DNA of 64,000 bases from a virus (taxonomy: Duplodnaviria; Heunggongvirae; Uroviricota; Caudoviricetes): the IMG/VR virus record IMGVR_UViG_3300025896_000022. One strand, written 5' to 3'. A model generated the notes under the pieces. The model did not search any database and had not been told where the DNA came from. It worked only from the letters and a program-made list of their open reading frames with translations. Made by a program: the position numbers and the translations under genes. Within the stretch, counting starts at the first letter, position 1. Each line of letters opens with the position of its first letter. This document shows, piece after piece, positions 2,793 to 26,888 of this stretch.

Positions 2793-3173
2793 TTAATCTC
2801 TGTGAAATTCAATTAAATATCCATCTGCAATAAGAATTCTAAGACAAGTATCATCATCAAATAATTGTAATGTAATCTTTGTTCCATCTTGATCAACGCA
2901 ATCAATTACTTGATAACCCTGTCCACTTGATGTTTTACCATCTACTTCTCCAGAAATTTGATGCATTGTTCTATTTTTGCCACTTGTATAATACAATACA
3001 ATATCTCGTAAATGATTTGCATTAAATACAACTGTAACTTCTGAATAAACCCATGGTTGTAATACACCTTTTTCTTTAGTAACAAAAGATGTATATTTTT
3101 TGACAAATGTGTCTTGTGCAAATGTTGTCATGCTCAATATAAATAGTAGAGCTACTAATAGTAGTTTTTTCAT
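2793..3173 (-). CDS. secreted protein with an N-terminal signal peptide
   Basis: MKKLLLVALLFILSMTTFAQ is a signal peptide with an AQ↓D-like cleavage site. Confidence 0.45.
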   Translation of the reverse strand: MKKLLLVALLFILSMTTFAQDTFVKKYTSFVTKEKGVLQPWVYSEVTVVFNANHLRDIVLYYTSGKNRTMHQISGEVDGKTSSGQGYQVIDCVDQDGTKITLQLFDDDTCLRILIADGYLIEFHRD

Positions 3174-3176
3174 AAT

Positions 3177-3425
3177 TTATTGAATATTTTCTTCATAATT
3201 TGTTTGATTCTTTCCAGATCCAGATGTTTGAGTTGTAATTGTTTCACCTCTTGATGTAAAATAGTGGTATTTTGCATTGTCTTCAAAACGATACATTTTT
3301 ATACCATCTTTTTCAAATAAAAAGTCTACTTCAACTTGATTACCTTCAGTACTTGAAGATACTGCTACTTTTTTACAACTTGTCATACCTAATAGTATTA
3401 TTACTATTAATAATAGTTTTTTCAT
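3177..3425 (-). CDS. small lipoprotein
   Basis: MKKLLLIVIILLGMTSCKK is a signal peptide with a lipobox-like LGMTSC. Confidence 0.45.
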   Translation of the reverse strand: MKKLLLIVIILLGMTSCKKVAVSSSTEGNQVEVDFLFEKDGIKMYRFEDNAKYHYFTSRGETITTQTSGSGKNQTNYEENIQ

Positions 3426-3450
3426 TTTAATAAAATTTTTGATTAGTTTA

Positions 3451-3762
3451 TTAGCACCTATGATAATGTTGAATGTTTTCTTTTCTAGTTAACCATTCTA
3501 GATTAATATAGTCGTTATTAGATTTTACTTTATCAATATGATTGACAGTTTCTTTATTGTAAGGATTTGCAACAAAATACTTTGCTACTAATCTATGTAT
3601 TTTTACTTTAGTAACTTTACCATTTGTAGAAATATTACAATAATTATATCCTCTTGCGTTGACATTTTGTTTAAGAATTTGCTTTTTACTATTCTTAAAC
3701 CTTCCTAAACTTGAAATAAAGTAATTAGGGTTCTCTATAAGTTGTTTCCATTGTTCTTTCAT
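3451..3762 (-). CDS. HNH homing endonuclease (NUMOD4 + HNH_3-like)
   Basis: 'NYFISSLGRFKN' is a NUMOD4-like motif. 'HRLVAKYFV…NHIDKVKSNNDYINLEWLTRKEN' is an HNH motif. Confidence 0.7.
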   Translation of the reverse strand: MKEQWKQLIENPNYFISSLGRFKNSKKQILKQNVNARGYNYCNISTNGKVTKVKIHRLVAKYFVANPYNKETVNHIDKVKSNNDYINLEWLTRKENIQHYHRC

Positions 3763-3818: not shown

Positions 3819-4433
3819 AAGAATACTAAAAAGCTGCACCCTCTTTTTTACAATTAATATTCAAGCAAGGTTTAAAGCCTTGTGTAAAAGAGTAGGGTCA
3901 CGTAGTTAATATGACGTTTGTTGATTACTACCAATTAAAGTGTAACACAACGGTTCTTTAACTACTTGCTGAGAATCATTACGTGAGTAGTATATCAATT
4001 TAATACTCTTAATATTTATTGCTTTCTCAAGGCAACTCACGTTCATACATTTCTGTATGTATCTTTATGTAAATAACAACTTCATAGATGCTACGTTAAC
4101 TGTAGAGAAGTTTAATCATCATTTTTATTTACAAAGCATCAATGTTTAGGCTATTTTTTACCAACCTTGGTCTTTCAGGGTTACTGGTTTGCTGACTTTA
4201 CTATTAACCCTTTTTCAAACCATCAACCTAACAGCGAGCATTGGTAATTTTTTAAAGAATAGTTTTTTCTATGTTTTTCAACTCATATTTTTGAATTGAT
4301 TGCAACACAAAAGTTTTCTTTCTTTCTTTGTCACATAGTCTTGCTGCTTCTGCTTCAGCTTCTTCTAAAGTTTCCCATTTCTTAGATGGCGAATTCATAC
4401 CTTCTACATGAACCATATAAAACTTTTCCATAA

Positions 4434-5282
4434 TTATCTATTTAATAAAATATTAGAACTTGAACCAAAAACATTATTAGAACCATAAGGAGATACACCT
4501 CTATTTGCCCATACTCTTTCTGTTTCTGCTTTATATAATTCTAGTAACTTAGGTTGAGATAATATTTCTTTTGTCTTAGCATCAAATATTGCTGCTTCAT
4601 AATTACCTTTTGCTAATGCAACTTTTTTCAATGCAGTTTGTTCAGCTTGTTTAGTTTGAGATATAATAGTTGCTGTTTCTTGTAGTACTGCAATCTTTCT
4701 TTCAATAGCTGCTTTATATGATTTAGGTAATTGCATTTTAAGAATTGCAATATTATTTAATGTAAATCCTTCTTTTTCTAATGCTATTGTTAAAGTTTTA
4801 CTTACTTCTGATTCGTATATGTTTCTATGTTGTAACAAACTATCTGATGCAAATCCTACAGCATTATCTAATAACTCTTTTCTGACAATAGTTCTAACTC
4901 TTGAATTAATTAAATCTTCCATATCAACTCTATATTTTATAAATAAATCAGCTGCTCTTGCTCTTTGCAACTGTAAGTTAATAGATACATCTAATCCAAA
5001 TGTAGCTCCATCTGCAGATGTTACATCAATATGTTCATCTGTTGGAGAATCTTCACTATCATCTGCTGTCCAAACTTTATGTTGAACTGATGTTGGATAC
5101 ATAAATACATCCTGTGTTGGTGGGAAATAAAAGATAAATCCACTTGCCATTTCAATATTTGGAACACCTTTATCATTTCCAATTTGATCTACTACTAATG
5201 CAACTTCACTTGAATCAGCTGTTGTACATGATGTTACAATCATTGATAAAACTACTCCTAATAACCATAATGATTTTTTCAT
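4434..5282 (-). CDS. SPFH/band-7 (prohibitin/HflC-like) domain lipoprotein
   Basis: It has a signal peptide plus lipobox (VLSMIVTSC). The C-terminal half has an SPFH-like pattern (…EKEGFTLNNIAILKMQLPKSYKAAIERKIAVLQE…QAEQTALKKVALAKGNYEAA…). Confidence 0.5.
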   Translation of the reverse strand: MKKSLWLLGVVLSMIVTSCTTADSSEVALVVDQIGNDKGVPNIEMASGFIFYFPPTQDVFMYPTSVQHKVWTADDSEDSPTDEHIDVTSADGATFGLDVSINLQLQRARAADLFIKYRVDMEDLINSRVRTIVRKELLDNAVGFASDSLLQHRNIYESEVSKTLTIALEKEGFTLNNIAILKMQLPKSYKAAIERKIAVLQETATIISQTKQAEQTALKKVALAKGNYEAAIFDAKTKEILSQPKLLELYKAETERVWANRGVSPYGSNNVFGSSSNILLNR

Positions 5283-5285
5283 AAT

Positions 5286-5519
5286 CTAATTTTTGTTTAA
5301 TTTGTTTTTAATAATTTTTATTATTTGTTTAAATATCAACATATTCCAAAAAGATGCTGAAAAAATTGTCAAAAGTAGTGATGCTAAACCCATCACAAAG
5401 GCAAATGTAGATGGTTTACTCATTAAATGCAAACTTAACACAACCATTCCTATTGTAGAAATGGCTATGATAAATAAGCAAACTAATAGTAACCAAATAT
5501 TGTTTAATAATTTAGTCAT
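5286..5519 (-). CDS. small integral membrane protein with two predicted TM helices. It may be an NfeD/YqiJ-like partner of the SPFH protein.
   Basis: 77 aa and strongly hydrophobic. It is immediately downstream of the SPFH gene, separated from it by 4 nt. Confidence 0.4.
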   Translation of the reverse strand: MTKLLNNIWLLLVCLFIIAISTIGMVVLSLHLMSKPSTFAFVMGLASLLLTIFSASFWNMLIFKQIIKIIKNKLNKN

Positions 5520-7372
5520 TATATGATCATTTTTTCTTTGATTAATTTATCTACTTTTTTAGATACATATGAAATCATATCATTTGGTAGATTTTCTATG
5601 TTTGTCATTTTAATAAAATAATCAAACATCTCTTCTGAAGGTACTTCTTCATCAATTGCAATTTGAATTACTTGAAATCCTAATGCTTGTGCCATAGTAA
5701 CCTTTTTTCTGGTGTCATTGATAGCAGCTTGACCATTATATCCACTTGCTGCTGGTTGACCATCAGAAATAACAAATAATAATCCTGGATCAGGTGTTTT
5801 ATTTCTAACACGTTTAGCAACAGCATAAATTGCATCGCCATCTCTATTGTAACTTCTTGCTCTTGCAGAACCTAATGCATATGGATCCATGTTTGTTCCT
5901 GGTTCACGATAAATTCTAATAGTACAATCTTGACTTTTTTCATCTGCAGTATGACCATAAATATACAATTGAACATCAGGTTGCTTTTTAAATACTTCAT
6001 TGATGAAAATTGCTGCTTGACGTGCTTTTGGCATTCTTTCACCACAACCCATAGAACCTGATTCATCAATCAATACAGTTATATTAACTTTATTAGTTGT
6101 TACTTGACCAAATCTTTCATAAATAGTTGGCACTCTTTGAATTGCTTCTGCAAGTTTATTAGTATCTAGTCTACCTGAACGCATGGATTTCATAGAAAAC
6201 TGATAATCTTTTGCTTTACGTGAAAATAACTTAGCAAGAACTTGAGCTTTTGTACTATTAATTTTTGTTAAATCTTTTAGATATTTGTTTTTATCAGTTT
6301 CAGATTTTACAAAATAAACTTTACCATCAAATGATTCACCAGTTTTACTAAAATTATGACTTGAAGCCATTGCTCTTTTTTCTTTCATGTCGTCAGTAAA
6401 ATCATCAAAATCATCTTGAAAATCATCTGAATTATCACCATCAGGTGCATTCATCATTCCTTCCATCATTTTTGATGCTAAATCATTCATGTCAGATTTA
6501 CTTGGTTTAGGTGCTTTTCCACCAGAACCTTCATCTTCATTTTCTTCTTTACCTTCGCCTTCACCATCACCTTTTTCTTCTTCTTTCTTTTCTTCTGCAA
6601 CAATGAATTTATCAATTACACCAGAAAGATATTGAGCTTGTCTTTCACAATCTGCAGATGTAATTGGAAATCCATGTTTTTTCATGTAATTTTCAATCTG
6701 CGAAAGAGGTTTTGCAAACTCTTCTACTTCTTCATCAGTTACATGTGCTGGATACCTAAGAAATTTAGTAATAGTTTCAGTAAGTCTTTTTCCAGCATGT
6801 TCTTCTTCACCAAGTGGTTCATATGTTTTATCATATTTATACTGTTTAAATTTTTGAACAAACTTAGAATAACCTGGAAATCTATCTGCTAATTTTTTGT
6901 CAACTCTTTCAGTATTTAGTATTGAAAACATCAAATCTTTTACTGTTGTAGTAGTAGCACTATTTCGCGCATTCATGGTACGTGAGTATTCGCTTCTTGT
7001 TTGCAAGGTTGCAAGAGCTGCATTTTGAATTGCAGCACCATAAAACGCATCTAAAAGCTCTACATCATGATTCATATATTCACCATCTTCTGAACGTAAC
7101 ATGTTCAAAGGAACTGGAATAGTTGTTTTATCACTTACTGCTCTAAGTTTATTTGAATGATCAAATTTTATATCTTTTGGAACACCAATTACTCTAAACA
7201 TAGAACCAATCATTTTGGCTGCGGATCTTAAGTTTTGATTATCTCTTACAAAATAAGAAGAGTAACCTGTTCTACCAGAATCCCAATCAAACAACTTTTT
7301 ACTTGGATCATAAAAAGAATAAGCATCTTCTTCTTTTCTTTTCCACCAGTCTTTTTTAAATTTTATACTCAT
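5519..7372 (-). CDS. cobT: von Willebrand factor A (vWA) domain protein, CobT-like
   Basis: The C-terminal 'VLIDESGSMGCGERMPKARQAAIFINEVF…VISDGQP' is a vWA MIDAS (DxSGS) motif. It has an acidic low-complexity linker and is 617 aa. It sits next to a MoxR/CobS-like AAA+ gene. Confidence 0.55.
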   Translation of the reverse strand: MSIKFKKDWWKRKEEDAYSFYDPSKKLFDWDSGRTGYSSYFVRDNQNLRSAAKMIGSMFRVIGVPKDIKFDHSNKLRAVSDKTTIPVPLNMLRSEDGEYMNHDVELLDAFYGAAIQNAALATLQTRSEYSRTMNARNSATTTTVKDLMFSILNTERVDKKLADRFPGYSKFVQKFKQYKYDKTYEPLGEEEHAGKRLTETITKFLRYPAHVTDEEVEEFAKPLSQIENYMKKHGFPITSADCERQAQYLSGVIDKFIVAEEKKEEEKGDGEGEGKEENEDEGSGGKAPKPSKSDMNDLASKMMEGMMNAPDGDNSDDFQDDFDDFTDDMKEKRAMASSHNFSKTGESFDGKVYFVKSETDKNKYLKDLTKINSTKAQVLAKLFSRKAKDYQFSMKSMRSGRLDTNKLAEAIQRVPTIYERFGQVTTNKVNITVLIDESGSMGCGERMPKARQAAIFINEVFKKQPDVQLYIYGHTADEKSQDCTIRIYREPGTNMDPYALGSARARSYNRDGDAIYAVAKRVRNKTPDPGLLFVISDGQPAASGYNGQAAINDTRKKVTMAQALGFQVIQIAIDEEVPSEEMFDYFIKMTNIENLPNDMISYVSKKVDKLIKEKMII

Positions 7373-8505: not shown

Positions 8506-9780
8506 TTAAAACGCAGCAATAATTGATAATACTTTACTACGTTCAGAAGTACCAATACCATCTTCAAAAAGAGGCATAATAACACTTTGAATTGCGCTAG
8601 TAAGTTCAAAACCATCTACAATTAATCCAGCAGTTTGTAAAGTATGTCTTACTGAAACTGGAGTAGATAATTCTTGGTCTTTATATTGTTTTCTAATTTC
8701 ATTAGAAACTTTAACAATAGCAGATGCAGATTTTTCATCAACACCTGTACGAATTTTTAAGATGTTAATTTCATCTTCTTCTTGAGGATATCCTAATTCA
8801 ATAGGAAAAAATCTATCTAACAATGCTCTATCTATAGCGTTAGTACCAGAGTACTCAGAACCTAGATTAGCAGTTGCAAAAAATACAGTTTCTGGATTTA
8901 CTTGAACTTGACGATCACATTCTTCACAAGCGACATCTACAGGTAAATATCTTCTGTTATCTAAACAAGGAAACAAGATATTATTTGCAGCTAAAGGTGC
9001 TCTGTTTAACTCGTCAAGAAGTACAATGCCTCCAGATTTAATGTGTCCAACAAAAGGTGCAAATTCAAATTCTGAATGACCTAATTTACCAATTCTGTGA
9101 ACGCCTAGTAATGCTGATTGAGCATCTTGAACAGTACCCATATCTTGTATGTACAATGGTTTTGCCATTGCTTTTGCAAGGTGATTTAACAATTCTGTTT
9201 TACCTGAACCTGTAGGTCCCATAAGTAAAGTATTTTCACCTCTCAACACATTTCTCACAAGTAAGTACCAGATATCTGGTTCAATGTGAAAACCACAATC
9301 TTCCTTGGTAGGCACTGGATAATTTGCAGAAATTGTACGCTTTAAATTAGTTCCTGCAGGAAGTGCTTCACCAGCAGCAGGTAATGCAAATTTTGCATCC
9401 CAATCAAATTTGTAACCATAAGGTTCATATTTAGTTGCCATTTCTTTTGCTTTTTCCACACCAAATTCTGAATGATCAATCATATAATCAATCAAAAAGT
9501 CTACAAGTGGAATACGTGATGGATCACTAATAGGAAATACATCATTCATGTAATACATTGCTGTAATACCTTCTTTACGAATATGTAAGTGATCTGATTC
9601 AGGAAAATCATAACCATCTGCACAGAATACTGTACCTAATGGAAATTTTACAATGTCAGCAATAGGTGCTGTTATTTTAATATCTTTTACGTTGATAGGT
9701 AAACTTTTTTCAAAAGATTGACCTGCTAATGTTTCAACTTCAAAAGATGTACCGTTTAATAATGCTCTAAATAGGATCAT
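8506..9780 (-). CDS. cobS: AAA+ ATPase of the MoxR / CobS-like family
   Basis: Walker A is 'LLMGPTGSGKTELLNHLA'. Walker B / sensor is 'IVLLDELNRAPLAANNILFPCLD' followed by 'FFATANLG'. This is an AAA_5-type arrangement, and it sits next to a vWA protein. Confidence 0.65.
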   Translation of the reverse strand: MILFRALLNGTSFEVETLAGQSFEKSLPINVKDIKITAPIADIVKFPLGTVFCADGYDFPESDHLHIRKEGITAMYYMNDVFPISDPSRIPLVDFLIDYMIDHSEFGVEKAKEMATKYEPYGYKFDWDAKFALPAAGEALPAGTNLKRTISANYPVPTKEDCGFHIEPDIWYLLVRNVLRGENTLLMGPTGSGKTELLNHLAKAMAKPLYIQDMGTVQDAQSALLGVHRIGKLGHSEFEFAPFVGHIKSGGIVLLDELNRAPLAANNILFPCLDNRRYLPVDVACEECDRQVQVNPETVFFATANLGSEYSGTNAIDRALLDRFFPIELGYPQEEDEINILKIRTGVDEKSASAIVKVSNEIRKQYKDQELSTPVSVRHTLQTAGLIVDGFELTSAIQSVIMPLFEDGIGTSERSKVLSIIAAF

Positions 9781-16328: not shown

Positions 16329-16817
16329 TTAAAGTTCTGCTGTTGCTGTTGATTTAACAGTTGCATTACTTTTAACTACTACATTGTCATGTGCAATTAA
16401 CACATCTTGTTCATTACCTGTTGCGTCATAGGTAGAGAATCTTAAAATTCTTTCACCACCTAGAGTTAACTCGTCACCATCAGCACCTGCACGCTTTATG
16501 TAACTACTAATAGAAGTTTCATAATCAACATTTTTGTTGAGTTGTGCAGCGATGTTCTCAGGTAGTTGAGACTCAAGATATTCTCTGGTGACAATCTTAC
16601 CAGGAACTTGTAAACTCTTATGAGCACTAACAAAAGTCTTTAAGATTTCTGTTGTTGCACGTAATATACATGCGCGTTTTTGCTCACGTATCCAACCATC
16701 AGCACCTATACTGATTGCTGTTTGTTGCAACTGAATATAACCATATTCAGGATTTGATTTATAGTTTGTTATCAAACTATTTGACTTGCTGTTAACTACG
16801 ATTTGTACTGTAGACAT
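16329..16817 (-). CDS. hypothetical protein, paralogue A of a tandem pair
   Basis: 162 aa. Its sequence closely matches ORF 17416..17928 ('ADGWIRE…LNKNVDYETSIS.YIKRAG.DG.ELTLGGERILRF…IAHDN…'). It has its own flanking non-coding regions and terminator. Confidence 0.5.
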   Translation of the reverse strand: MSTVQIVVNSKSNSLITNYKSNPEYGYIQLQQTAISIGADGWIREQKRACILRATTEILKTFVSAHKSLQVPGKIVTREYLESQLPENIAAQLNKNVDYETSISSYIKRAGADGDELTLGGERILRFSTYDATGNEQDVLIAHDNVVVKSNATVKSTATAEL

Positions 16818-17415: not shown

Positions 17416-17928
17416 CTACAATTCAGCTTTAGCAGTAGCATCTGATTTAGCAGCCATAACTTCACTGATATTATCATGCGCAATTCTTGCGTCTTGAGAT
17501 AATCCAGATGGATCATACGAAGTGAAGCGTAGTATTCTCTCACCTCCTAATGTTAATTCAACACCATCTTTTCCTGCACGTTTAATGTAAGGAGAGATAG
17601 ATGTTTCATAATCAACATTCTTATTTAATCGTGAACTATAAGATTCAGGAATCTGAGACTCCAGAAACTCGTTCACAATTATTTTACCAGGAAGTGTTAA
17701 GTTTTTACTATTTGCAACAAACTTCTCTAGTATCACAATTTCTGCACGCATTAAAGTACTGCGTGAAGATTCTCTAATCCAACCGTCTGCACTCACAGAC
17801 ATTTCAGATGAATTAAGAGTAATAAAACCATAGTCTGCATTATTTTTATACACACTGATAATTGCGCCATCTTTTCCTGGCTTAATAGAAACATTATTCA
17901 TAATAAAATATTTAATATTTAGTCGCAC
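17416..17928 (-). CDS. hypothetical protein, paralogue B of the tandem pair
   Basis: 170 aa. It matches ORF 16329..16817 over most of its length. Confidence 0.5.
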   Translation of the reverse strand: MRLNIKYFIMNNVSIKPGKDGAIISVYKNNADYGFITLNSSEMSVSADGWIRESSRSTLMRAEIVILEKFVANSKNLTLPGKIIVNEFLESQIPESYSSRLNKNVDYETSISPYIKRAGKDGVELTLGGERILRFTSYDPSGLSQDARIAHDNISEVMAAKSDATAKAEL

Positions 17929-20025: not shown

Positions 20026-20313
20026 ATGTCAGATTTTAAAAAATTAAGAGGAAGAAGAATTTTACTTACTAAACCAGTAAAGAAAGAAAGTGCAATTCAA
20101 TTATCTGCAAATATAGAAGCAGAAATGGATGCAGATGCAATGAAACAATGGACTGCACTTGAAGTATACGCTATTGGGGATGATGTTGAAGAAGTTGCTA
20201 TAGGTGATAAAGTGTATGTACCAACATATGGATTACAACAAGCTGAAATTCTTGAAGTTGGTGGTGCACTAAGAATGATGATTTCTGAAGGAGATATTGC
20301 AATTATTTGGTAA
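20026..20313 (+). CDS. groES: GroES/cpn10-like co-chaperonin (T4 gp31-like)
   Basis: It is 95 aa. 'RILLTKP' followed by a mobile-loop region, then '…EVYAIGDDVEEVAIGDKVYV…ISEGDIAIIW', is collinear with the GroES layout (RVLV…; GDxVl; E.DILAI). Confidence 0.55.
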   Translation: MSDFKKLRGRRILLTKPVKKESAIQLSANIEAEMDADAMKQWTALEVYAIGDDVEEVAIGDKVYVPTYGLQQAEILEVGGALRMMISEGDIAIIW

Positions 20314-20490
20314 AATAATTAGACCTCTACTAGTGCACTGGTATGTATCGAAGATAGGAATTACAGACACTCATTAAAAAGTGTGTTGGCGTGGAGGTCC
20401 TCCAAATCGTAGGTTGGCACAGTTTGTAACTCTGGGGATATTCAAAAGTTACTGATGGCTTAGTCAGTTGTGCCATAAACAACTGTTGAT

Positions 20491-20562
20491 TGCGTGAAGG
20501 TGTAAATGGTTGCATACAGGTCTCATAAACCTAGAGGGGTGGTTCGAGTCCACGACACGCTA
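20491..20562 (+). tRNA. tRNA-like element, possibly tRNA-Met/Ile2 (CAT), with a canonical T-loop GGTTCGAGTCC but several stem mismatches. It may be degenerate.
   Basis: A manual fold gives the anticodon loop CTCATAA, the T-arm GGTGG-TTCGAGT-CCACG and a D-loop AAATGGTT. The acceptor pairs at only 5 of 7 positions. This needs tRNAscan-SE. Confidence 0.3.
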
Positions 20563-20572
20563 CTAAATTACT

Positions 20573-20929
20573 GGGGATGACTGGTTTTGACAGGTCATTA
20601 GTAAGTAGTACAATCAGCCAGAGAGATAACTGTAAACTAAGGTGAATTTAATAAATGACAACAAAGTAATTTCGTTAGATGCTGACCAAGTTAGTGCTAA
20701 CATGAGCAAAGTTTTTTCATTAATTAATGCAGATGTCGAAGAGTTAGAAATAGCTGCGTAGTAAGCATCAACAAGATTTATCAGTTCGATTAAACTGATT
20801 GGTGGTTTTGTCTACATTAGTAGATCCCAGAGTGCTCCTGTAGACTCTTTAAATAAGTATGGGTGCAAAAGCTGTATAAATTGTATTATTGACCATGGTT
20901 TGGACAGGGGTTCGACTCCCCTCATCTCC
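20573..20929 (+). ncRNA. ssrA: tmRNA (ssrA-like, one-piece) carried by the phage
   Basis: The 5' end GGGGATGACTGGTTTTGACAGG matches the tmRNA consensus GGGGnUGnnnnGGnUUCGACnGG. The 3' end GGACAGGGGTTCGACTCCCCTCATCTCCA forms a T-arm (AGGGG-TTCGACT-CCCCT). Its acceptor strand CATCTCC pairs 7/7 (one G·U) with the 5' GGGGATG. The internal tag frame ends …GCA GAT GTC GAA GAG TTA GAA ATA GCT GCG TAG TAA (20729-20764), giving the putative tag A-DVEELEIAA. Confidence 0.7.
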
Positions 20930-21019
20930 ACAAGTGTATGTTATTATAGACAATATCTTATCTATTGTCTATAATAACACACATTAATAACTAATATATT
21001 AGTTAAAAACCTAACAACA

Positions 21020-23444: not shown

Positions 23445-23634
23445 TATTATGAAACTAAATAGATTATACAACTGGTTATTTCATTATAACCCACATACAG
23501 AAAATTGGAATGCATTTCATAGAGATGACCAATCTGCATACTGGAATAAAACAGAAAAAACACATCCTGTATTTACAGCAAAAGAATTTAATGAGTTAAT
23601 AAAAATATTACACACCTCAAATTTATGTATATAA
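23425..23634 (+). CDS. hypothetical protein
   Basis: 69-aa ORF overlapping both neighbours. Confidence 0.3.
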   Translation: MLTTKCNIMKLNRLYNWLFHYNPHTENWNAFHRDDQSAYWNKTEKTHPVFTAKEFNELIKILHTSNLCI

Positions 23635-26600
23635 GTGTACCAACTCATGATTGTGAATTAGATTCATGGTCTGTAACAGACTTTGAAACAAGGGAATTGT
23701 TTGTAGAGTTTCTGACAAAAATGTTCAAGGTTCCTGGTACTTATGAATTTGATGAATGTTCTAACAAGTTTAACGAACAAGCACAGTTATTTAATAAAAA
23801 TAATAAAGTATATTGTGTATCACCTTTACGTTCAAAAGATTATGTAACGTATTGGGATGACCAAAAAGCAAAATGTAGATATGGAGTTATATATAAAAGT
23901 AATGGAAAGACTTGGTATTTAACTAGAGAATATTACATGTGGTTAAATTTTTTGCCTATATATGATAAAGAAGAAGCACGATTTGGATTTGCAAAAGTCA
24001 GAGACGCTCAGTATCATATGGCATTATATGAAGAACTTGCTAGACATTCTTATAAGCATGTTGTTATATTAAAGAAACGTCAGATTGCGTCAAGTTATTA
24101 TCATGGTGCAAAAATGATAAATTACTTTTGGTTTGAAGAAGGTTCTATTAGTAAAATGGCAGGTTCACTTAAAGACTATATTAATGAAAAAGGTACTTGG
24201 CGTTTTCTTGAAGAATATAGAAACTTTTTAAATACTTATACAGCATGGTACAGACCATGTACTCCAGATAAAGTACTTAACTGGGAACAAAAAATTGAAA
24301 TTAATCAAGGTGGTAAAAAACGAGATGTTGGTTTAAAATCAGTTATATTTGGATTAGTACTTGATAAAGATCCTACAAATGGTGTAGGTGGACCATGTAC
24401 ATTATTTTTTCATGAAGAAGCAGGTATTGCACCTAAGATGAATATGACAATGGAATACTTGTTGCCTGCAATGAAATCGGGTATGATATATACTGGTCAA
24501 TTTATTGCAGCAGGTTCAGTAGGAGATTTAGCACAATGTGAACCATTGCGTGAAATGTTAATGAATCCAGATGGTAAAGACATTCTTGCTGTTGAAACTA
24601 ATTTGATTAATGATAAAGGTGAGATTGGAATGTGCGGATTATTTATTCCAGAACAATGGTCAATGTTACCTTGTATTGATGAATATGGTAATTCACAAGT
24701 TGAACTTGCATTAGAAATGATTCTTGCAGAAAGAATAGTATGGAAAAAGAAACTTAAACCAGATGATTATCAACTTCGTATTTCTCAGAAACCTATTAAC
24801 ATTGCTGAAGCATTTGCACATAGAACAAGATCTGTATTTCCATTACACTTGGTAACACAACAACTTAGAAGAATTGAAGAAGGAGAATATTATAAAGAAT
24901 TTTTAGATTTAAATCGTGATGAAACTGGTAAAGTAGTTGCTAAAGAATCTAAAAAAATACCAATATCTGAATTTCCATTATCATCAAAAACTGAAGATAA
25001 AGAAGGTGTTTTAGTTGTATGGGAAAGACCACATAAAGATCCAATATTTGGAATGTATTACGCATCTGTCGATCCAGTTGCTGAAGGAAAGGCAGAGCAT
25101 GTTGATAATATGCTCTATACACCAAAAGGTAGAAAAAGAATAGGTGATATTCAAATAGGTGATAAAGTAACTGGTTCTAATGGAGAAGTTATTAATGTGA
25201 TTGGTGTTTACCCACAAGGAGTTAAAAAAATGTGTAAAATAACGTTTAGTGATGGACATAGTATTAAAGTATGTGAAGATCATTTATGGAATGTAAAATT
25301 AAATGGCGGAACAAAAGGATATATTACACTTTCTGTAAAAGATTTATTAAACAATACTAAAACAATTACATATAATGGAACAGGTAGAAATACTAAAAAA
25401 GAATATACAATTTCTACTTATTATAAAGATAAACAAAATAGAAATAAATGGTCAATACCAATAGTTAAACCTATTAGTTTTGATTTTGGTAAAATATTAC
25501 CTGTTAATCCTTATTTACTAGGTTTACTATTAGGTGATGGAGGATTATCTCAAAAATCTATTAGATTTAGTACAGTTGACACTGAGTTAATAAATTCTAT
25601 TGAACACATATTAGAAGATGACTTATTAATAAAAAAAGTTAAAAATTCAAATTGTGATTATACAATTATTACAAAAGTTGGTTCAAGAAATTCATTAACT
25701 AAAAGATTAAAAGAATTAGGTTTAAAAGGTAAAAGGTCCGAAGATAAATTTATACCACAAGAATACCTATATGCATTAGGATCTTGTAGATTATCTTTAT
25801 TACAAGGATTAATGGATACAGATGGTTCTTATTCAAATCATGGAGCAGAATTTTACTCATCATCAAAAAAATTAGCTTATCAAGTTGTTGAATTAGTACA
25901 ATCATTAGGAGGAATAGCAAAAATAAGATGTAAAAAAACAACTCATTTAGATTCTTATATTGTAAGAGTATTATTGCCTGAATATCTTAATCCTTTTATA
26001 CTAAAAAGAAAAAGAGAAATATATAAACCATCAAAAGTATTTAGCAAATACATAACAAATATAGAATACATTAATGACGCAGAAGCAATATGTATATCTG
26101 TTGATGCTCTTGATAATCTTTATGTTACGGAACATGCTATAGTTACACATAACACAACAACATCAGATTCATTATGTTCTATTTATGTATATAAAACATC
26201 TCAAGAAATTACAACACATAAATCTGATGGCACAATTGAATCTAATATTGAACGCGATAAAATTGTAGCTGCATGGTGTGGTAGATTTGATGATTTAAAT
26301 AAAACACATGAAAGACTTGAGTTAATTATTGAATGGTATAATGCGTGGACAATATGTGAAAATAACGTTAGTGCATTTATTCAGCATATGATTGCGCGTA
26401 GAAAACAAAAGTATTTAGTACCAAAAAATCAAATTATGTTTCTTAAAGAAATACAAGCAAACATGAATGTATTTCAAGAATATGGTTGGAAAAATGTTGG
26501 TACTATGTTTAAAGTAAATATTATACCATATGGTAAACAATTTCTTGAAGAAGAATTAGATTATGAAACTAAAACAGATGGTACTATTGTCAAAACTACA

Positions 26601-26888
26601 TATGGTGTAGAAAGAATACCAGACATCATGTTGTTAAAAGAAATGGCAGCATATAGAGATGGATTAAACGTGGATAGGATTATTGCTTTTTGTGCATTAG
26701 TTGCATTTGCAAAAGTGCAAGAATCCAATCGTGGTTACACTAAACGTGTTGAAAGAGAAGATGATAATTTGCAAAAGTCAAATAAAAATGCTAAATTGAG
26801 AGTGAGTCCATTTAGACATATGGGTGGTTCATATTCAATTAATTCATCTATGAGAAAACCTCATAATCCTTTTAAAAACATAAGATAA
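23625..26888 (+). CDS. terL: terminase large subunit (TerL) with an in-frame intein of about 347 aa carrying a LAGLIDADG homing endonuclease
   Basis: It has an ATPase-like N-terminal half and a Walker-B-like 'CTLFFHEEAG'. The nuclease-domain first catalytic motif 'SVDPVAEGK…' is interrupted by an intein. The intein shows a Hint N-block (GRKRIGDIQIGDKVTGSNGEVINV), two LAGLIDADG motifs (LLGLLLGDGGL; LQGLMDTDGSY) and a C-terminal '…VTHN|T' junction. The extein resumes 'TTTSDSLCSIYVY', matching the 'D.sa' part of the terminase nuclease motif. Confidence 0.7.
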   Translation: MYISVPTHDCELDSWSVTDFETRELFVEFLTKMFKVPGTYEFDECSNKFNEQAQLFNKNNKVYCVSPLRSKDYVTYWDDQKAKCRYGVIYKSNGKTWYLTREYYMWLNFLPIYDKEEARFGFAKVRDAQYHMALYEELARHSYKHVVILKKRQIASSYYHGAKMINYFWFEEGSISKMAGSLKDYINEKGTWRFLEEYRNFLNTYTAWYRPCTPDKVLNWEQKIEINQGGKKRDVGLKSVIFGLVLDKDPTNGVGGPCTLFFHEEAGIAPKMNMTMEYLLPAMKSGMIYTGQFIAAGSVGDLAQCEPLREMLMNPDGKDILAVETNLINDKGEIGMCGLFIPEQWSMLPCIDEYGNSQVELALEMILAERIVWKKKLKPDDYQLRISQKPINIAEAFAHRTRSVFPLHLVTQQLRRIEEGEYYKEFLDLNRDETGKVVAKESKKIPISEFPLSSKTEDKEGVLVVWERPHKDPIFGMYYASVDPVAEGKAEHVDNMLYTPKGRKRIGDIQIGDKVTGSNGEVINVIGVYPQGVKKMCKITFSDGHSIKVCEDHLWNVKLNGGTKGYITLSVKDLLNNTKTITYNGTGRNTKKEYTISTYYKDKQNRNKWSIPIVKPISFDFGKILPVNPYLLGLLLGDGGLSQKSIRFSTVDTELINSIEHILEDDLLIKKVKNSNCDYTIITKVGSRNSLTKRLKELGLKGKRSEDKFIPQEYLYALGSCRLSLLQGLMDTDGSYSNHGAEFYSSSKKLAYQVVELVQSLGGIAKIRCKKTTHLDSYIVRVLLPEYLNPFILKRKREIYKPSKVFSKYITNIEYINDAEAICISVDALDNLYVTEHAIVTHNTTTSDSLCSIYVYKTSQEITTHKSDGTIESNIERDKIVAAWCGRFDDLNKTHERLELIIEWYNAWTICENNVSAFIQHMIARRKQKYLVPKNQIMFLKEIQANMNVFQEYGWKNVGTMFKVNIIPYGKQFLEEELDYETKTDGTIVKTTYGVERIPDIMLLKEMAAYRDGLNVDRIIAFCALVAFAKVQESNRGYTKRVEREDDNLQKSNKNAKLRVSPFRHMGGSYSINSSMRKPHNPFKNIR
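25110..26153 (+). mobile_element. intein (Hint domain plus LAGLIDADG endonuclease) within terL. The C-terminal boundary is well defined (His-Asn 26148-26153, then Thr+1). The N-terminal boundary is approximate.
   Basis: See the TerL entry. The residue at the inferred N-terminal junction is not a canonical Cys/Ser, so the exact start may lie a few codons away. Confidence 0.6.

What the first reader, a model, noticed from the sequence alone, without database searches (positions are those of the whole stretch)
20573..20929. The phage carries a complete tmRNA (ssrA-like) gene whose proteolysis tag ends in …EIAA rather than ALAA
The 5' end (GGGGATGACTGGTTTTGACAGG), the T-arm (AGGGG-TTCGACT-CCCCT) and a 7-bp acceptor pairing (GGGGATG/CATCTCC, one G·U) are 357 nt apart and bracket an internal tag frame ending GCA GAT GTC GAA GAG TTA GAA ATA GCT GCG TAG TAA. 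Phage-borne tmRNAs are uncommon. The inferred tag (A)DVEELEIAA would differ from typical bacterial …YALAA tags, so the phage could redirect or blunt host trans-translation and tagging during infection. The resume codon lies unusually far (about 157 nt) from the 5' end, so the tag start is uncertain.
Basis: partly seen in the sequence, partly recalled or inferred. Interest (0 to 1): 0.8.

Follow-up and report, generated by a model that had tools for sequence, protein, structure and literature searches.

The report
Phage tmRNA with long conserved tag
The phage does carry a complete ribosome-rescue RNA (tmRNA), and it belongs to a large group found almost only in viruses whose encoded protein tag is three to four times the usual length and contains an invariant motif of unknown purpose.

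Summary
The tmRNA at 20573-20930 (+) is real. ARAGORN calls it, and Rfam RF00023 scores 85.2 bits (threshold 47, E 1e-31, full length).

Translation should resume at the canonical site, GAC 20657 (nt 85). That gives a 34-aa tag, DNKVISLDADQVSANMSKVFSLINADVEELEIAA, followed by UAG UAA.

"EIAA" is not a real departure. In 84 related tags, 80 have V, L, I, M or F as the antepenultimate residue. All end in AA (78) or VA (6), like canonical degrons.

The unusual part is a clade of tmRNAs:
- It occurs in at least 107 viral contigs.
- It occurs in 1 of 185,579 species genomes, on a 4.9-kb MAG contig.
- Among deposited phages it is found only in Cellulophaga phage phi14:2, where it is unannotated.
- Its tRNA-like domain is Bacteroidota-type, its PK1 core is nearly invariant, and its tags are 26-45 aa.
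- The tags share the core Q-x-x-A-N-M-x-x-V-[FHY]-[SN]-[LI]-[LI], which is under peptide-level selection.

No reader of this motif was found.

The phi14:2 tmRNA lies within the gap holding two published abundant "non-coding RNAs" of unknown function.

Verdict: a new variant of a known kind, of moderate to high interest.

The parts
20573..20930 (+). tmRNA gene (358 nt up to discriminator A; CCA not encoded, the next bases are CAA)
   Evidence: ARAGORN; Rfam RF00023 85.2 bits, E 1e-31, model positions 1-374
20573..20579 (+). Acceptor stem, 5' strand GGGGAUG (G3 forms the G3.U70 wobble)
   Evidence: Sequence. G1-C, G2-C and G3.U are invariant and positions 4-6 co-vary in 80 full-length relatives
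20906..20930 (+). T-arm (AGGGG-UUCGACU-CCCCU), acceptor 3' strand CAUCUCC and discriminator A
   Evidence: Sequence. T-stem 100% paired, with 3 of 5 pairs showing compensatory change
20591..20618 (+). Helix 2, 5' strand (pairs with 20871-20902)
   Evidence: 21 pairs, 95.7-100% paired, 15 with changes on both sides
20871..20902 (+). Helix 2, 3' strand (GCUG...AUUGUAUUAUUGACCAUGGUUUG)
20615..20644 (+). PK1-region core CAGCCAGAGAGAUAACUGUAAACUAAGGUG. It contains a small hairpin, CAG 20619-20621 pairing with CUG 20630-20632
   Evidence: Exact match in 107 viral contigs and in 1 of 185,579 species genomes. 26 of 34 members retrieved by tag peptide have it exactly. A fourth hairpin pair co-varies A-U / C-G. 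The second pseudoknot stem was not identified
20657..20758 (+). Tag reading frame, 34 codons from resume codon GAC: DNKVISLDADQVSANMSKVFSLINADVEELEIAA
   Evidence: The Rfam alignment places the consensus resume codon here. The frame is open from this site in all 71 distinct relatives, with 7 length classes that are all multiples of 3. ARAGORN's alternative start is GCT 20681, in the same frame
20687..20728 (+). Conserved tag core QVSANMSKVFSLIN (family motif Q-x-x-A-N-M-x-x-V-[FHY]-[SN]-[LI]-[LI])
   Evidence: Q, A, N, M and V are invariant with free third codon positions. pN/pS is 0.43 in frame and 0.92/1.35 off frame. Alignment A2
20759..20764 (+). Tandem stop codons UAG UAA
   Evidence: Sequence; ARAGORN
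20780..20799 (+). Post-tag hairpin A (AUCAGUU-CGAUUA-AACUGAU)
   Evidence: 7 pairs, 99% paired, 5 with compensatory change
20804..20827 (+). Hairpin B (GG...GUCUAC-AUUA-GUAGAU-CC)
   Evidence: GG/CC invariant. 6-bp stem 82% paired, 4 pairs with compensatory change
20829..20863 (+). Hairpin C (AGAGU/ACUCU). Its loop CCUGUA (20837-20842) can pair with UAUGGG (20858-20863), giving a candidate 3' pseudoknot
   Evidence: Hairpin C: 5 of 5 pairs compensatory, but in only 8-9 sequences. The pseudoknot stem is only 69.8% paired, with one compensatory pair
20491..20562 (+). tRNA-like gene (anticodon CAU) 10 nt upstream, probably co-transcribed
   Evidence: Rfam tRNA 25.5 bits, below the threshold of 29. 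Homologous and syntenic with tRNA-Met(CAU) genes upstream of the tmRNA in relatives

Best explanation
This is a functional one-piece tmRNA encoded by a crAss-like phage of a Bacteroidota (probably Flavobacteriia) host. It belongs to a clade of tmRNAs found almost only in viral contigs.

Proposed mechanism, step by step:
1. The RNA is transcribed rightward, probably together with the tRNA(CAU)-like gene 10 nt upstream (inferred).
2. The host's RNase P and 3' trimming process it, and the host adds CCA, which the gene does not encode (inferred).
3. Host AlaRS charges it with alanine through the invariant G3.U70 pair. The element is shown; the charging is inferred.
4. It enters stalled ribosomes with host SmpB and EF-Tu. 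No SmpB gene is present in the window (shown); the entry step is inferred.
5. Translation resumes at GAC 20657 and adds Ala plus DNKVISLDADQVSANMSKVFSLINADVEELEIAA before UAG UAA. The frame and the position are shown comparatively.
6. The C-terminal [V/L/I/M]-A-A works as a ClpXP-type degron (inferred by analogy).
7. The invariant core ...Q-x-x-A-N-M-x-x-V-[FHY]-[SN]-[LI]-[LI]... is a second determinant read as peptide by a factor not yet identified, such as an adaptor or another AAA+ protease.

Net effect: the phage supplies its own ribosome-rescue capacity during infection and gives the rescued products a phage-specified fate.

The confidence of 0.78 applies to 'functional tmRNA with a long tag that starts at the canonical site'. 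The sub-claim that the core is a recognition determinant for an adaptor or protease is held at about 0.4.
For: Identity as a tmRNA:
- ARAGORN and Rfam both call it.
- On 34 relatives, 95.9% of cells pair against 39-48% for slid controls. 36 of 62 pairs are compensatory, and 0 of 500 shuffles reach that.
- The alanine identity element and discriminator A are invariant in 80 members.

Host machinery:
- The tRNA-like domain is nearly identical at both ends to host-type Bacteroidota tmRNAs, including the non-encoded CCA.
- No SmpB, Clp or Lon family appears among the 54 window ORFs.

Tag:
- In 71 of 71 distinct relatives, the distance from the canonical resume codon to the ANM anchor is a multiple of 3, across 7 length classes.
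- Stops in that segment: 0 of 71 in frame 0, against 48 and 22 in the other two frames.
- The core shows synonymous-site variation with invariant residues. pN/pS is 0.43 in frame against 0.92 and 1.35 off frame.
- The C-terminus is hydrophobic-A-A or hydrophobic-V-A in 80 of 84 tags.

Virus specificity:
- The PK1 core occurs in 107 viral contigs but in only 1 of 185,579 species genomes.
- 266 tag-ORF clusters were found, none on a listed contig longer than about 124 kb.

Expression (indirect):
- phi14:2 carries an unannotated member at record positions 4031-4500.
- That lies in the g004-g006 gap.
- The published RNA-seq found abundant, early, non-declining rightward 'non-coding RNAs' in that gap (bioRxiv 10.1101/2020.03.07.982082).
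Against: - There is no direct evidence of expression, charging or tagging for this window.
- A full PK1 pseudoknot could not be demonstrated. Only a 3-4 bp hairpin is supported.
- The 3' pseudoknot has weak support.
- The N-terminal third of the tag shows no clear peptide-level constraint: pN/pS is 0.55-0.89 and overlaps the off-frame values. ARAGORN picks a later start.
- No candidate reader of the core motif was found. No protein family is adjacent across lineages, and no genuine protein carries the motif.
- The helix predicted by AlphaFold is not significantly amphipathic.
- The coordinates of g005 in phi14:2 could not be verified.
Confidence: 0.78

Rival explanations
1. Ribosome rescue only. 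The phage tmRNA just boosts rescue capacity. The long tag core is conserved for reasons unrelated to the fate of the tagged protein, such as efficient elongation or termination on the tmRNA, or an RNA-level interaction.
For: No reader of the motif was found. RNAalifold proposes pairing between the PK1 core (GAGA..ACU) and the KVFS codons.
Against: Members with the identical PK1 core encode V-H-N-I-L (GTT CAT AAC ATC) in place of V-F-S-L-L (GTA TTC TCT CTA). That destroys the proposed pairing while keeping the peptide pattern. Invariant residues vary at their synonymous sites, which points to selection on the peptide.
Confidence: 0.12
2. Decoy or inhibitor. The RNA competes with host tmRNA for SmpB, AlaRS or ribosomes to shut down host trans-translation, as reported for the CDS-less tmRNA-like RNA of mycobacteriophage DS6A.
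For: The tRNA-like domain is host-like. The DS6A precedent is cited in PMC11915505.
Against: A decoy needs no reading frame. Here the frame is open in all members, is selected at the peptide level, and always ends in a degron-like C-terminus with a stop codon.
Confidence: 0.05
3. Conventional small protein gene. The 39-aa GTG ORF (20642-20761), or a 19-aa ORF starting at the invariant ATG 20702, is translated by normal initiation, and the tmRNA resemblance is incidental or vestigial.
For: The ATG in the core is invariant. Gene callers annotate such ORFs in many metagenomes.
Against: The codons upstream of the ATG (Q, A, N) are invariant as amino acids but vary at synonymous sites. The starts chosen by gene callers differ between relatives. 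The frame begins exactly at the canonical post-PK1 resume position, inside a fully co-varying tmRNA scaffold.
Confidence: 0.03
4. Host gene or attachment-site remnant. The tmRNA is a bacterial ssrA gene, or a fragment of one, next to an integrated prophage.
For: Phages often integrate into ssrA. Host-type tmRNAs were indeed found at the ends of viral contigs.
Against: The gene is complete and sits between phage genes on both sides, with no integrase family detected. Its tag and PK1 differ from the host type, which has a 9-aa GENNYALAA tag. The same clade is present in the circular genome of the lytic phage phi14:2 and essentially absent from 185,579 species genomes.
Confidence: 0.02

Closest known systems
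Standard one-piece bacterial tmRNA (SsrA; Rfam RF00023)
   Same: It has an alanine-accepting tRNA-like domain with G3.U70, a long helix 2, and an internal frame without a start codon that begins about 12 nt after the PK1 region. The U(-5)A(-4) context, the stop codon and the hydrophobic-Ala-Ala C-terminus also match.
   Different: The tag is 26-45 aa (34 here), against a modal 10 aa (PMC11915505), and has an invariant internal motif. The PK1 sequence is atypical and the second stem was not found. The 3' domain is reduced to two hairpins plus at most one pseudoknot, instead of PK2-PK4. It is found in viral genomes and not cellular ones.
Bacteroidota host ssrA (tag GENNYALAA)
   Same: The 5' and 3' ends of the tRNA-like domain are nearly identical (GGGGnUGACnGGUUUUGACAG ... 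GUUUGGAC-T arm-CAnCUCCAC|AA). The resume codon starts with G, and CCA is not encoded.
   Different: The host type is about 395 nt with a 9-aa tag and a different PK1 (AGAGC/GCUCU type). The phage type is 301-474 nt with a long tag and its own conserved PK1 core.
Other phage-encoded tmRNAs (e.g. the two-piece ssrA of OM43 phage Melnitz and pelagimyophages; the CDS-less RNA of mycobacteriophage DS6A)
   Same: The gene is carried by lytic phages, often beside tRNA genes. Its function in infection is unknown, and the proposed roles are maintaining the translation machinery or tagging proteins for degradation (PMC9004378).
   Different: Melnitz's tmRNA is two-piece and groups phylogenetically with alphaproteobacterial (SAR11) tmRNAs and those of their phages, and DS6A lacks a tag frame. 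This clade keeps a host-type tRNA-like domain but has a virus-specific mRNA-like domain with a long conserved tag.
Mollicutes ssrA tags read by Lon
   Same: They show that a longer-than-usual tag can carry different or extra recognition determinants and switch protease specificity (PMC9382460).
   Different: Mollicutes tags end in NYAFA and evolved because those bacteria lack an active ClpXP. The phage tags keep the canonical hydrophobic-A-A end, and there is no sequence resemblance.
SspB-binding part of the E. coli tag (AANDENY)
   Same: It is a two-part tag: an upstream determinant for an adaptor plus a C-terminal LAA for ClpX (PMC9382460). This is the best functional analogy for 'conserved core plus hydrophobic-AA end'.
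   Different: No adaptor is known or was found here, and the core is longer (about 13 aa) and unrelated in sequence.

Membership tests
tmRNA (RF00023) | Significant match to the family covariance model over its full length | tested here: met
   85.2 bits against a gathering score of 47, E 1.3e-31, model positions 1-374. ARAGORN agrees.
tmRNA (RF00023) | tRNA-like domain: 7-bp acceptor stem with G3.U70, discriminator A, and a T-arm with a GUUCGAnUC loop | tested here: met
   Sequence. Invariant G3.U70 and co-varying stem in 80 members. Acceptor stem and T-arm are 100% paired.
tmRNA (RF00023) | Long helix 2 connecting the tRNA-like domain to the mRNA-like domain | tested here: met
   21 pairs, 15 of them with compensatory changes.
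tmRNA (RF00023) | Pseudoknot PK1 immediately upstream of the resume codon | tested here: inconclusive
   A conserved 30-nt block lies at the right place. Only a 3-4 bp hairpin is supported, with one co-varying pair. The second stem was not identified.
tmRNA (RF00023) | Internal frame without an initiation codon, starting a few nt after PK1 and ending in a stop, encoding a tag with a non-polar ...AA C-terminus | tested here: met
   In frame in 71 of 71 relatives, with 0 stops in frame 0. 70 distinct peptides. C-terminus [VLIM]-A-A.
tmRNA (RF00023) | Pseudoknots PK2-PK4 between the tag stop and helix 2 | tested here: inconclusive
   Two co-varying hairpins plus a third hairpin with one weakly supported pseudoknot stem. 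Posterior probability in the Rfam alignment is low here. From prior knowledge, these pseudoknots are replaceable in E. coli and reduced in several lineages.
tmRNA (RF00023) | Alanylation, SmpB/EF-Tu binding, and tagging of stalled nascent chains | not testable with these tools
   Needs biochemistry or proteomics.
Cellular Bacteroidota ssrA | 9-aa tag GENNYALAA (or a close variant) and the host-type PK1 | tested here: not met
   The host-type sequences recovered (L111-L143) all encode GENNYALAA and a different PK1. The window encodes a 34-aa tag.
Cellular Bacteroidota ssrA | Resides in a bacterial chromosome | tested here: not met
   The PK1 core occurs in 1 of 185,579 species genomes, on a 4.9-kb MAG contig. 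The window has phage structural genes on one side and phage early-type genes on the other.
Mollicutes-type Lon-directed long tags | C-terminal NYAFA-like motif | tested here: not met
   The tags end in [VLIM]AA or VA.
crAss-like phages (context of the gene) | crAss-specific structural proteins | tested here: met
   Pfam CrAss_Ring_1, CrAss_Ring_2 and crAss001_48. The capsid protein is only 22-28% identical to any deposited phage, so the relationship is distant.

The most novel reading that the evidence does not exclude
A clade of tmRNAs in phages of Bacteroidota has evolved its own tagging code. It combines a host-compatible tRNA-like domain with a 26-45-aa tag whose invariant core (Q..ANM..V[FHY][SN][LI][LI]) is read by a dedicated, still unknown phage or host factor. 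During infection, products of stalled ribosomes would then be routed to a phage-specified fate, such as selective degradation, sequestration or signalling, instead of the host's default pathway. The same RNA would be one of the highly abundant 'non-coding RNAs' of unknown function reported in the crAss-like model phage phi14:2.
Probability: 0.35. Interest if true: 0.8.

Novelty: new variant of a known kind. Interest (0 to 1): 0.6.

Why it matters
What phage tmRNAs do is an open question. Published ideas are limited to "maintain the hijacked machinery" or "tag host proteins" (PMC9004378).

This clade offers a concrete handle. Its tag has clearly diverged from the host's and is under peptide-level selection. 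That implies the sequence of the tag matters to the phage, and not only the rescue of the ribosome.

The clade is widespread: at least 107 viral contigs and 266 tag-ORF clusters. It also has one cultured member, phi14:2 with Cellulophaga baltica, for which infection RNA-seq already exists and shows an abundant unexplained RNA in the region that contains the tmRNA.

That makes the question directly testable. It would also correct the annotation of a model crAss-like phage.

Tried and rejected
- **Amphipathic helix.** The helical hydrophobic moment of the tags is no higher than in shuffled tags (16-60% of shuffles score as high). AlphaFold does model residues 9-33 as a helix (pLDDT 80), but this is weak evidence for a 34-aa peptide.
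- **RNA pairing as the cause of core conservation.** RNAalifold pairs the PK1 core with the KVFS codons. I rejected this because the VVHNIL variants keep the same PK1 core but lose the complementarity.
- **A dedicated neighbouring partner gene.** I clustered 3,083 flanking ORFs from 108 loci. No family is present in more than 28 loci.
- **SmpB, Clp or Lon encoded in the window.** None was found among 54 ORFs with Pfam.
- **A cellular or phage protein carrying the motif.** All 120 listed hits in the 5.8-billion-cluster database are 28-78-aa ORF artefacts over tmRNAs.
- **Other cultured phages with this tag.** Only phi14:2 was found. DNA searches of the phage collection gave only a 38-bp hit.
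- **Second stem of PK1.** Not found by inspection or from the variants.
- **Peptide-level constraint on the N-terminal tag segment.** Inconclusive.
- **Sigma-70 promoter and terminator scan.** Not above the shuffle expectation, and it does not model Bacteroidota promoters.
- **Literature.** No paper describing this clade or its tag was found. The supplements of the phi14:2 preprint and the journal version are not held, so g005's coordinates are unverified.

Full report
**1. Observation**

- GGGGATG at 20573-20579.
- T-arm AGGGG/TTCGACT/CCCCT at 20906-20922.
- CATCTCC at 20923-20929, pairing with the 5' end through one G.U at position 3.
- Discriminator A at 20930.
- An internal frame ending GAA ATA GCT GCG TAG TAA at 20747-20764.

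ARAGORN finds exactly one tmRNA in the 64-kb window, at 20573-20931. The Rfam tmRNA model RF00023 matches end to end at 85.2 bits, against a gathering score of 47, with E = 1.3e-31.

**2. Context**

The window is a phage:
- It has a large terminase, a portal and a major capsid protein (PHROGs).
- It has the crAss-specific Pfam families CrAss_Ring_1, CrAss_Ring_2 and crAss001_48.
- GC content is about 29%, and the strand switch lies at about 18-20 kb.

The phage is only distantly related to anything deposited. Its capsid protein is 28% identical to that of a Leptolyngbya phage and 22-23% identical to gut crAss-like phages. DNA searches of 50,697 phage records gave a single 38-bp exact hit.

The tmRNA lies in the first rightward transcription unit after the strand switch, upstream of the packaging genes.

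**3. The 38-bp hit led to a clade**

The hit is in Cellulophaga phage phi14:2 (Crassvirales, Steigviridae), inside a 470-nt tmRNA that neither GenBank nor RefSeq annotates. ARAGORN calls it, and Rfam scores it at 46 bits with E 5e-16.

The shared 30-nt block CAGCCAGAGAGATAACTGTAAACTAAGGTG (window 20615-20644) occurs as follows:
- Exactly in 107 IMG/VR viral contigs, many of them 90-117 kb.
- In only one of 185,579 species-representative bacterial and archaeal genomes. That one is a 4.9-kb contig binned into a Flavobacteriales MAG.

About 20-25 of these loci are syntenic with the window. The rest, including phi14:2, have different flanking genes, so the RNA is shared by several phage lineages.

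A search that did not rely on the 30-nt block used the tag peptide profile. It retrieved further members, and 26 of 34 of them had the block exactly. A protein-database search found 266 clusters of tiny ORF artefacts (28-78 aa among the 120 listed) laid over such tags. No listed hit is on a contig longer than about 124 kb, and no genuine longer protein carries the motif.

Among deposited phages, only phi14:2 has this tag type.

**4. RNA structure**

I counted pairs on 34 non-redundant members:
- 95.9% of cells form standard pairs, against 39-48% when partners are slid by 1-3 columns.
- 36 of 62 pairs show changes on both sides.
- 0 of 500 shuffles reach this.

The acceptor stem keeps G1-C, G2-C, G3.U70 and discriminator A in all 80 full-length members, while positions 4-6 co-vary. 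G3.U70 is the alanine identity element (established knowledge). Helix 2, the T-arm and two post-tag hairpins co-vary strongly.

A third hairpin, together with a candidate pseudoknot (CCUGUA 20837-20842 with UAUGGG 20858-20863), has only weak support.

For PK1, I could support only a 3-4 bp hairpin, CAG/CUG. Its fourth pair is A-U in some variants and C-G in others. A second stem was not found.

The 3' domain is reduced compared with the four-pseudoknot textbook form.

**5. The tag**

Where the frame starts:
- The Rfam alignment puts the consensus resume codon on GAC 20657, which is nt 85. E. coli resumes at nt 90 (prior knowledge).
- It is preceded by UAAAU, which has the same U(-5)A(-4) as E. 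coli's UAGUC.
- ARAGORN chose a later in-frame GCT (nt 109). Its choices jump between 85 and 170 among close relatives.

I located the canonical site with a frame-blind rule, the first G[GA][CA] following WWW[TC] after the PK1 block. Every one of 71 distinct upstream segments then places the invariant GCN-AAY-ATG anchor at a multiple of three. The distances are 18, 24, 27, 30, 39, 42 and 51 nt. Stops occur in 0 of 71 segments in that frame, against 48 and 22 of 71 in the other two frames.

The window's tag is therefore most likely (A)DNKVISLDADQVSANMSKVFSLINADVEELEIAA, 34 encoded residues followed by UAG UAA. Tags in the clade are 26-45 aa. The most frequent tag length in the tmRNA database is 10 aa (PMC11915505).

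**6. The tag core is selected as peptide**

The tags align into three parts:
- A variable N-terminal part.
- An invariant core, Q-x-x-A-N-M-x-x-V-[FHY]-[SN]-[LI]-[LI].
- A variable linker of about 0-20 aa, then [VLIM]-A-A.

In 62 distinct 14-codon cores, Q, A, N, M and V never change, while their third positions vary freely (Ala uses GCT/GCA/GCC/GCG, Val uses GTA/GTT/GTG, Asn uses AAC/AAT). Mean entropy at codon positions 1, 2 and 3 is 0.78, 0.58 and 1.11. pN/pS is 0.43 in frame, against 0.92 and 1.35 in the shifted frames.

RNAalifold proposed an RNA-level explanation, pairing of the core with the PK1 block. It fails because VVHNIL-type and KVFSLL-type tags share the identical PK1 block but have unrelated nucleotides at these codons.

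The N-terminal part shows no clear peptide constraint and behaves like a spacer.

**7. The C-terminus is ordinary**

Among 84 distinct tags the antepenultimate residue is V 38, L 17, I 13, M 11, A 3, F 1 and E 1. The last two residues are AA in 78 tags and VA in 6.

Canonical tags commonly end in LAA, which ClpX reads (PMC9382460). So '...EIAA' is a conservative variant and gives no reason to think proteolysis is blunted.

**8. Relation to the host**

Host-type Bacteroidota tmRNAs were recovered at the ends of prophage-like viral contigs. They are 336-399 nt long (all but one 393-399 nt) and encode GENNYALAA from a GGC resume codon.

Their tRNA-like domains are almost the same as the window's. 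The 5' ends read GGGGAUGACCGGUUUUGACAG against GGGGAUGACUGGUUUUGACAG. The 3' ends read ...GUUUGGAC-T arm-CAUCUCCAC|AA in both, and neither encodes CCA.

The mRNA-like domain differs in PK1, in the tag and in the 3' pseudoknots.

Three facts make a Bacteroidota (Flavobacteriia) host that supplies all protein partners the economical reading: the host-like tRNA-like domain, the Cellulophaga host of phi14:2, and the absence of any SmpB, Clp or Lon family among 54 window ORFs.

**9. Expression, by inference from a relative**

[quoted passage not shown] They are transcribed rightward at higher levels than most genes. They are present from the earliest time point and do not decline. Their 'functions ... 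remain to be determined' (bioRxiv 10.1101/2020.03.07.982082).

In the RefSeq record that uses this gene naming, g004 ends at 2904 and g006 starts at 4602. The tmRNA occupies 4031-4500 on the + strand.

An abundant, stable, early RNA is what a tmRNA would look like. I could not verify g005's coordinates because the supplements are not held, so this identification is an inference.

**10. Mechanism**

The proposed mechanism is as set out step by step under the best explanation: host processing and CCA addition, alanylation through G3.U70, ribosome entry with host SmpB and EF-Tu, resumption at GAC 20657, and termination at UAG UAA. The hydrophobic-A-A end would act as a Clp-type degron.

The invariant core would be a second determinant for an unidentified reader. 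Two cases are analogous: the SspB-binding half of the E. coli tag, and the extended Lon-directed tags of Mollicutes (PMC9382460).

I found no candidate reader:
- No protein family is consistently adjacent across lineages.
- No protein in the large database carries the motif.
- The helix predicted by AlphaFold is not significantly amphipathic.

**11. What is known and what is new**

Phage tmRNAs are documented:
- About 2.3% of phage genomes carry one (PMC9004378).
- The tmRNA database covers RefSeq viruses (PMC11915505).
- Flavobacterial phage papers mention a tmRNA in passing (PMC8776804, PMC11590407).

I found no description of this clade, of its extended conserved tag, or of the phi14:2 tmRNA.

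The clade-level picture is a new variant of a known kind.

**12. Verdict**

The tmRNA is real and very probably functional. The actual oddity is the long, virus-specific tag with a conserved motif. It has a tractable cultured model in phi14:2. Interest: 0.6.

Noticed in passing
window 20491-20562 (+): tRNA-like gene with anticodon CAU. It scores 25.5 bits, just under Rfam's tRNA threshold of 29, and ARAGORN misses it. It has a mismatch at one end of each of the four helices, and the sequence is nearly the same in several relatives. It is homologous and syntenic with tRNA-Met(CAU) genes upstream of the tmRNA in related phages. In the window it sits only 10 nt from the tmRNA, because a ~63-aa ORF present in most relatives is missing here.
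   Followed up: partly
window 20314-20490 (+): Conserved non-coding stretch between the ORF ending at 20313 and the tRNA-like gene. It is 84-90% identical in syntenic relatives. Part of it (about 20384-20447) also occurs in non-syntenic tmRNA-bearing contigs L008 and L014. It has no Rfam match, and its folding energy is no better than shuffles (z = -0.04).
   Followed up: partly
window 20935-20983: Near-perfect palindrome with 21-nt arms and a 7-nt spacer, immediately after the tmRNA 3' end. It carries a TAGACA-17-TATAAT promoter-like match on both strands and is unique in the window. It could be a 3' processing or termination hairpin, or an operator/promoter for the downstream gene.
   Followed up: partly
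window 23625-26888 (+): The large terminase subunit is 1087 aa because of an intein-like insert. Hint matches at residues 503-546 and LAGLIDADG_3 at 721-778. Relatives align only over the first ~496 residues in one piece.
   Followed up: partly
L001 1837-2521 (= phi14:2 record about 2905-3589): The second abundant 'non-coding RNA' region reported for phi14:2 (the g004-g005 junction) remains unexplained. There is no Rfam hit at E <= 0.1, no ARAGORN call, and no blastn similarity to the window's upstream non-coding region.
   Followed up: partly
window 8506-9780 and 5519-7372 (-): A MoxR-like AAA+ ATPase (AAA_5, CbbQ_C) and, about 1.1 kb away on the same strand, a CobT/vWA-like protein. Such pairs are common in phages. 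I found no link to the tmRNA.
   Followed up: no
window 16329-16817 and 17416-17928 (-): Tandem paralogous ORFs of 162 and 170 aa, both ending in ...AEL and with no Pfam match. They are conserved in the syntenic relatives.
   Followed up: no
L007 3286-6973: One 100-kb viral contig carries the tmRNA-type PK1 block and long tag frame directly upstream of an array of 20 tRNA genes. ARAGORN did not call the tmRNA there, so the clade is probably under-detected by standard tools.
   Followed up: no
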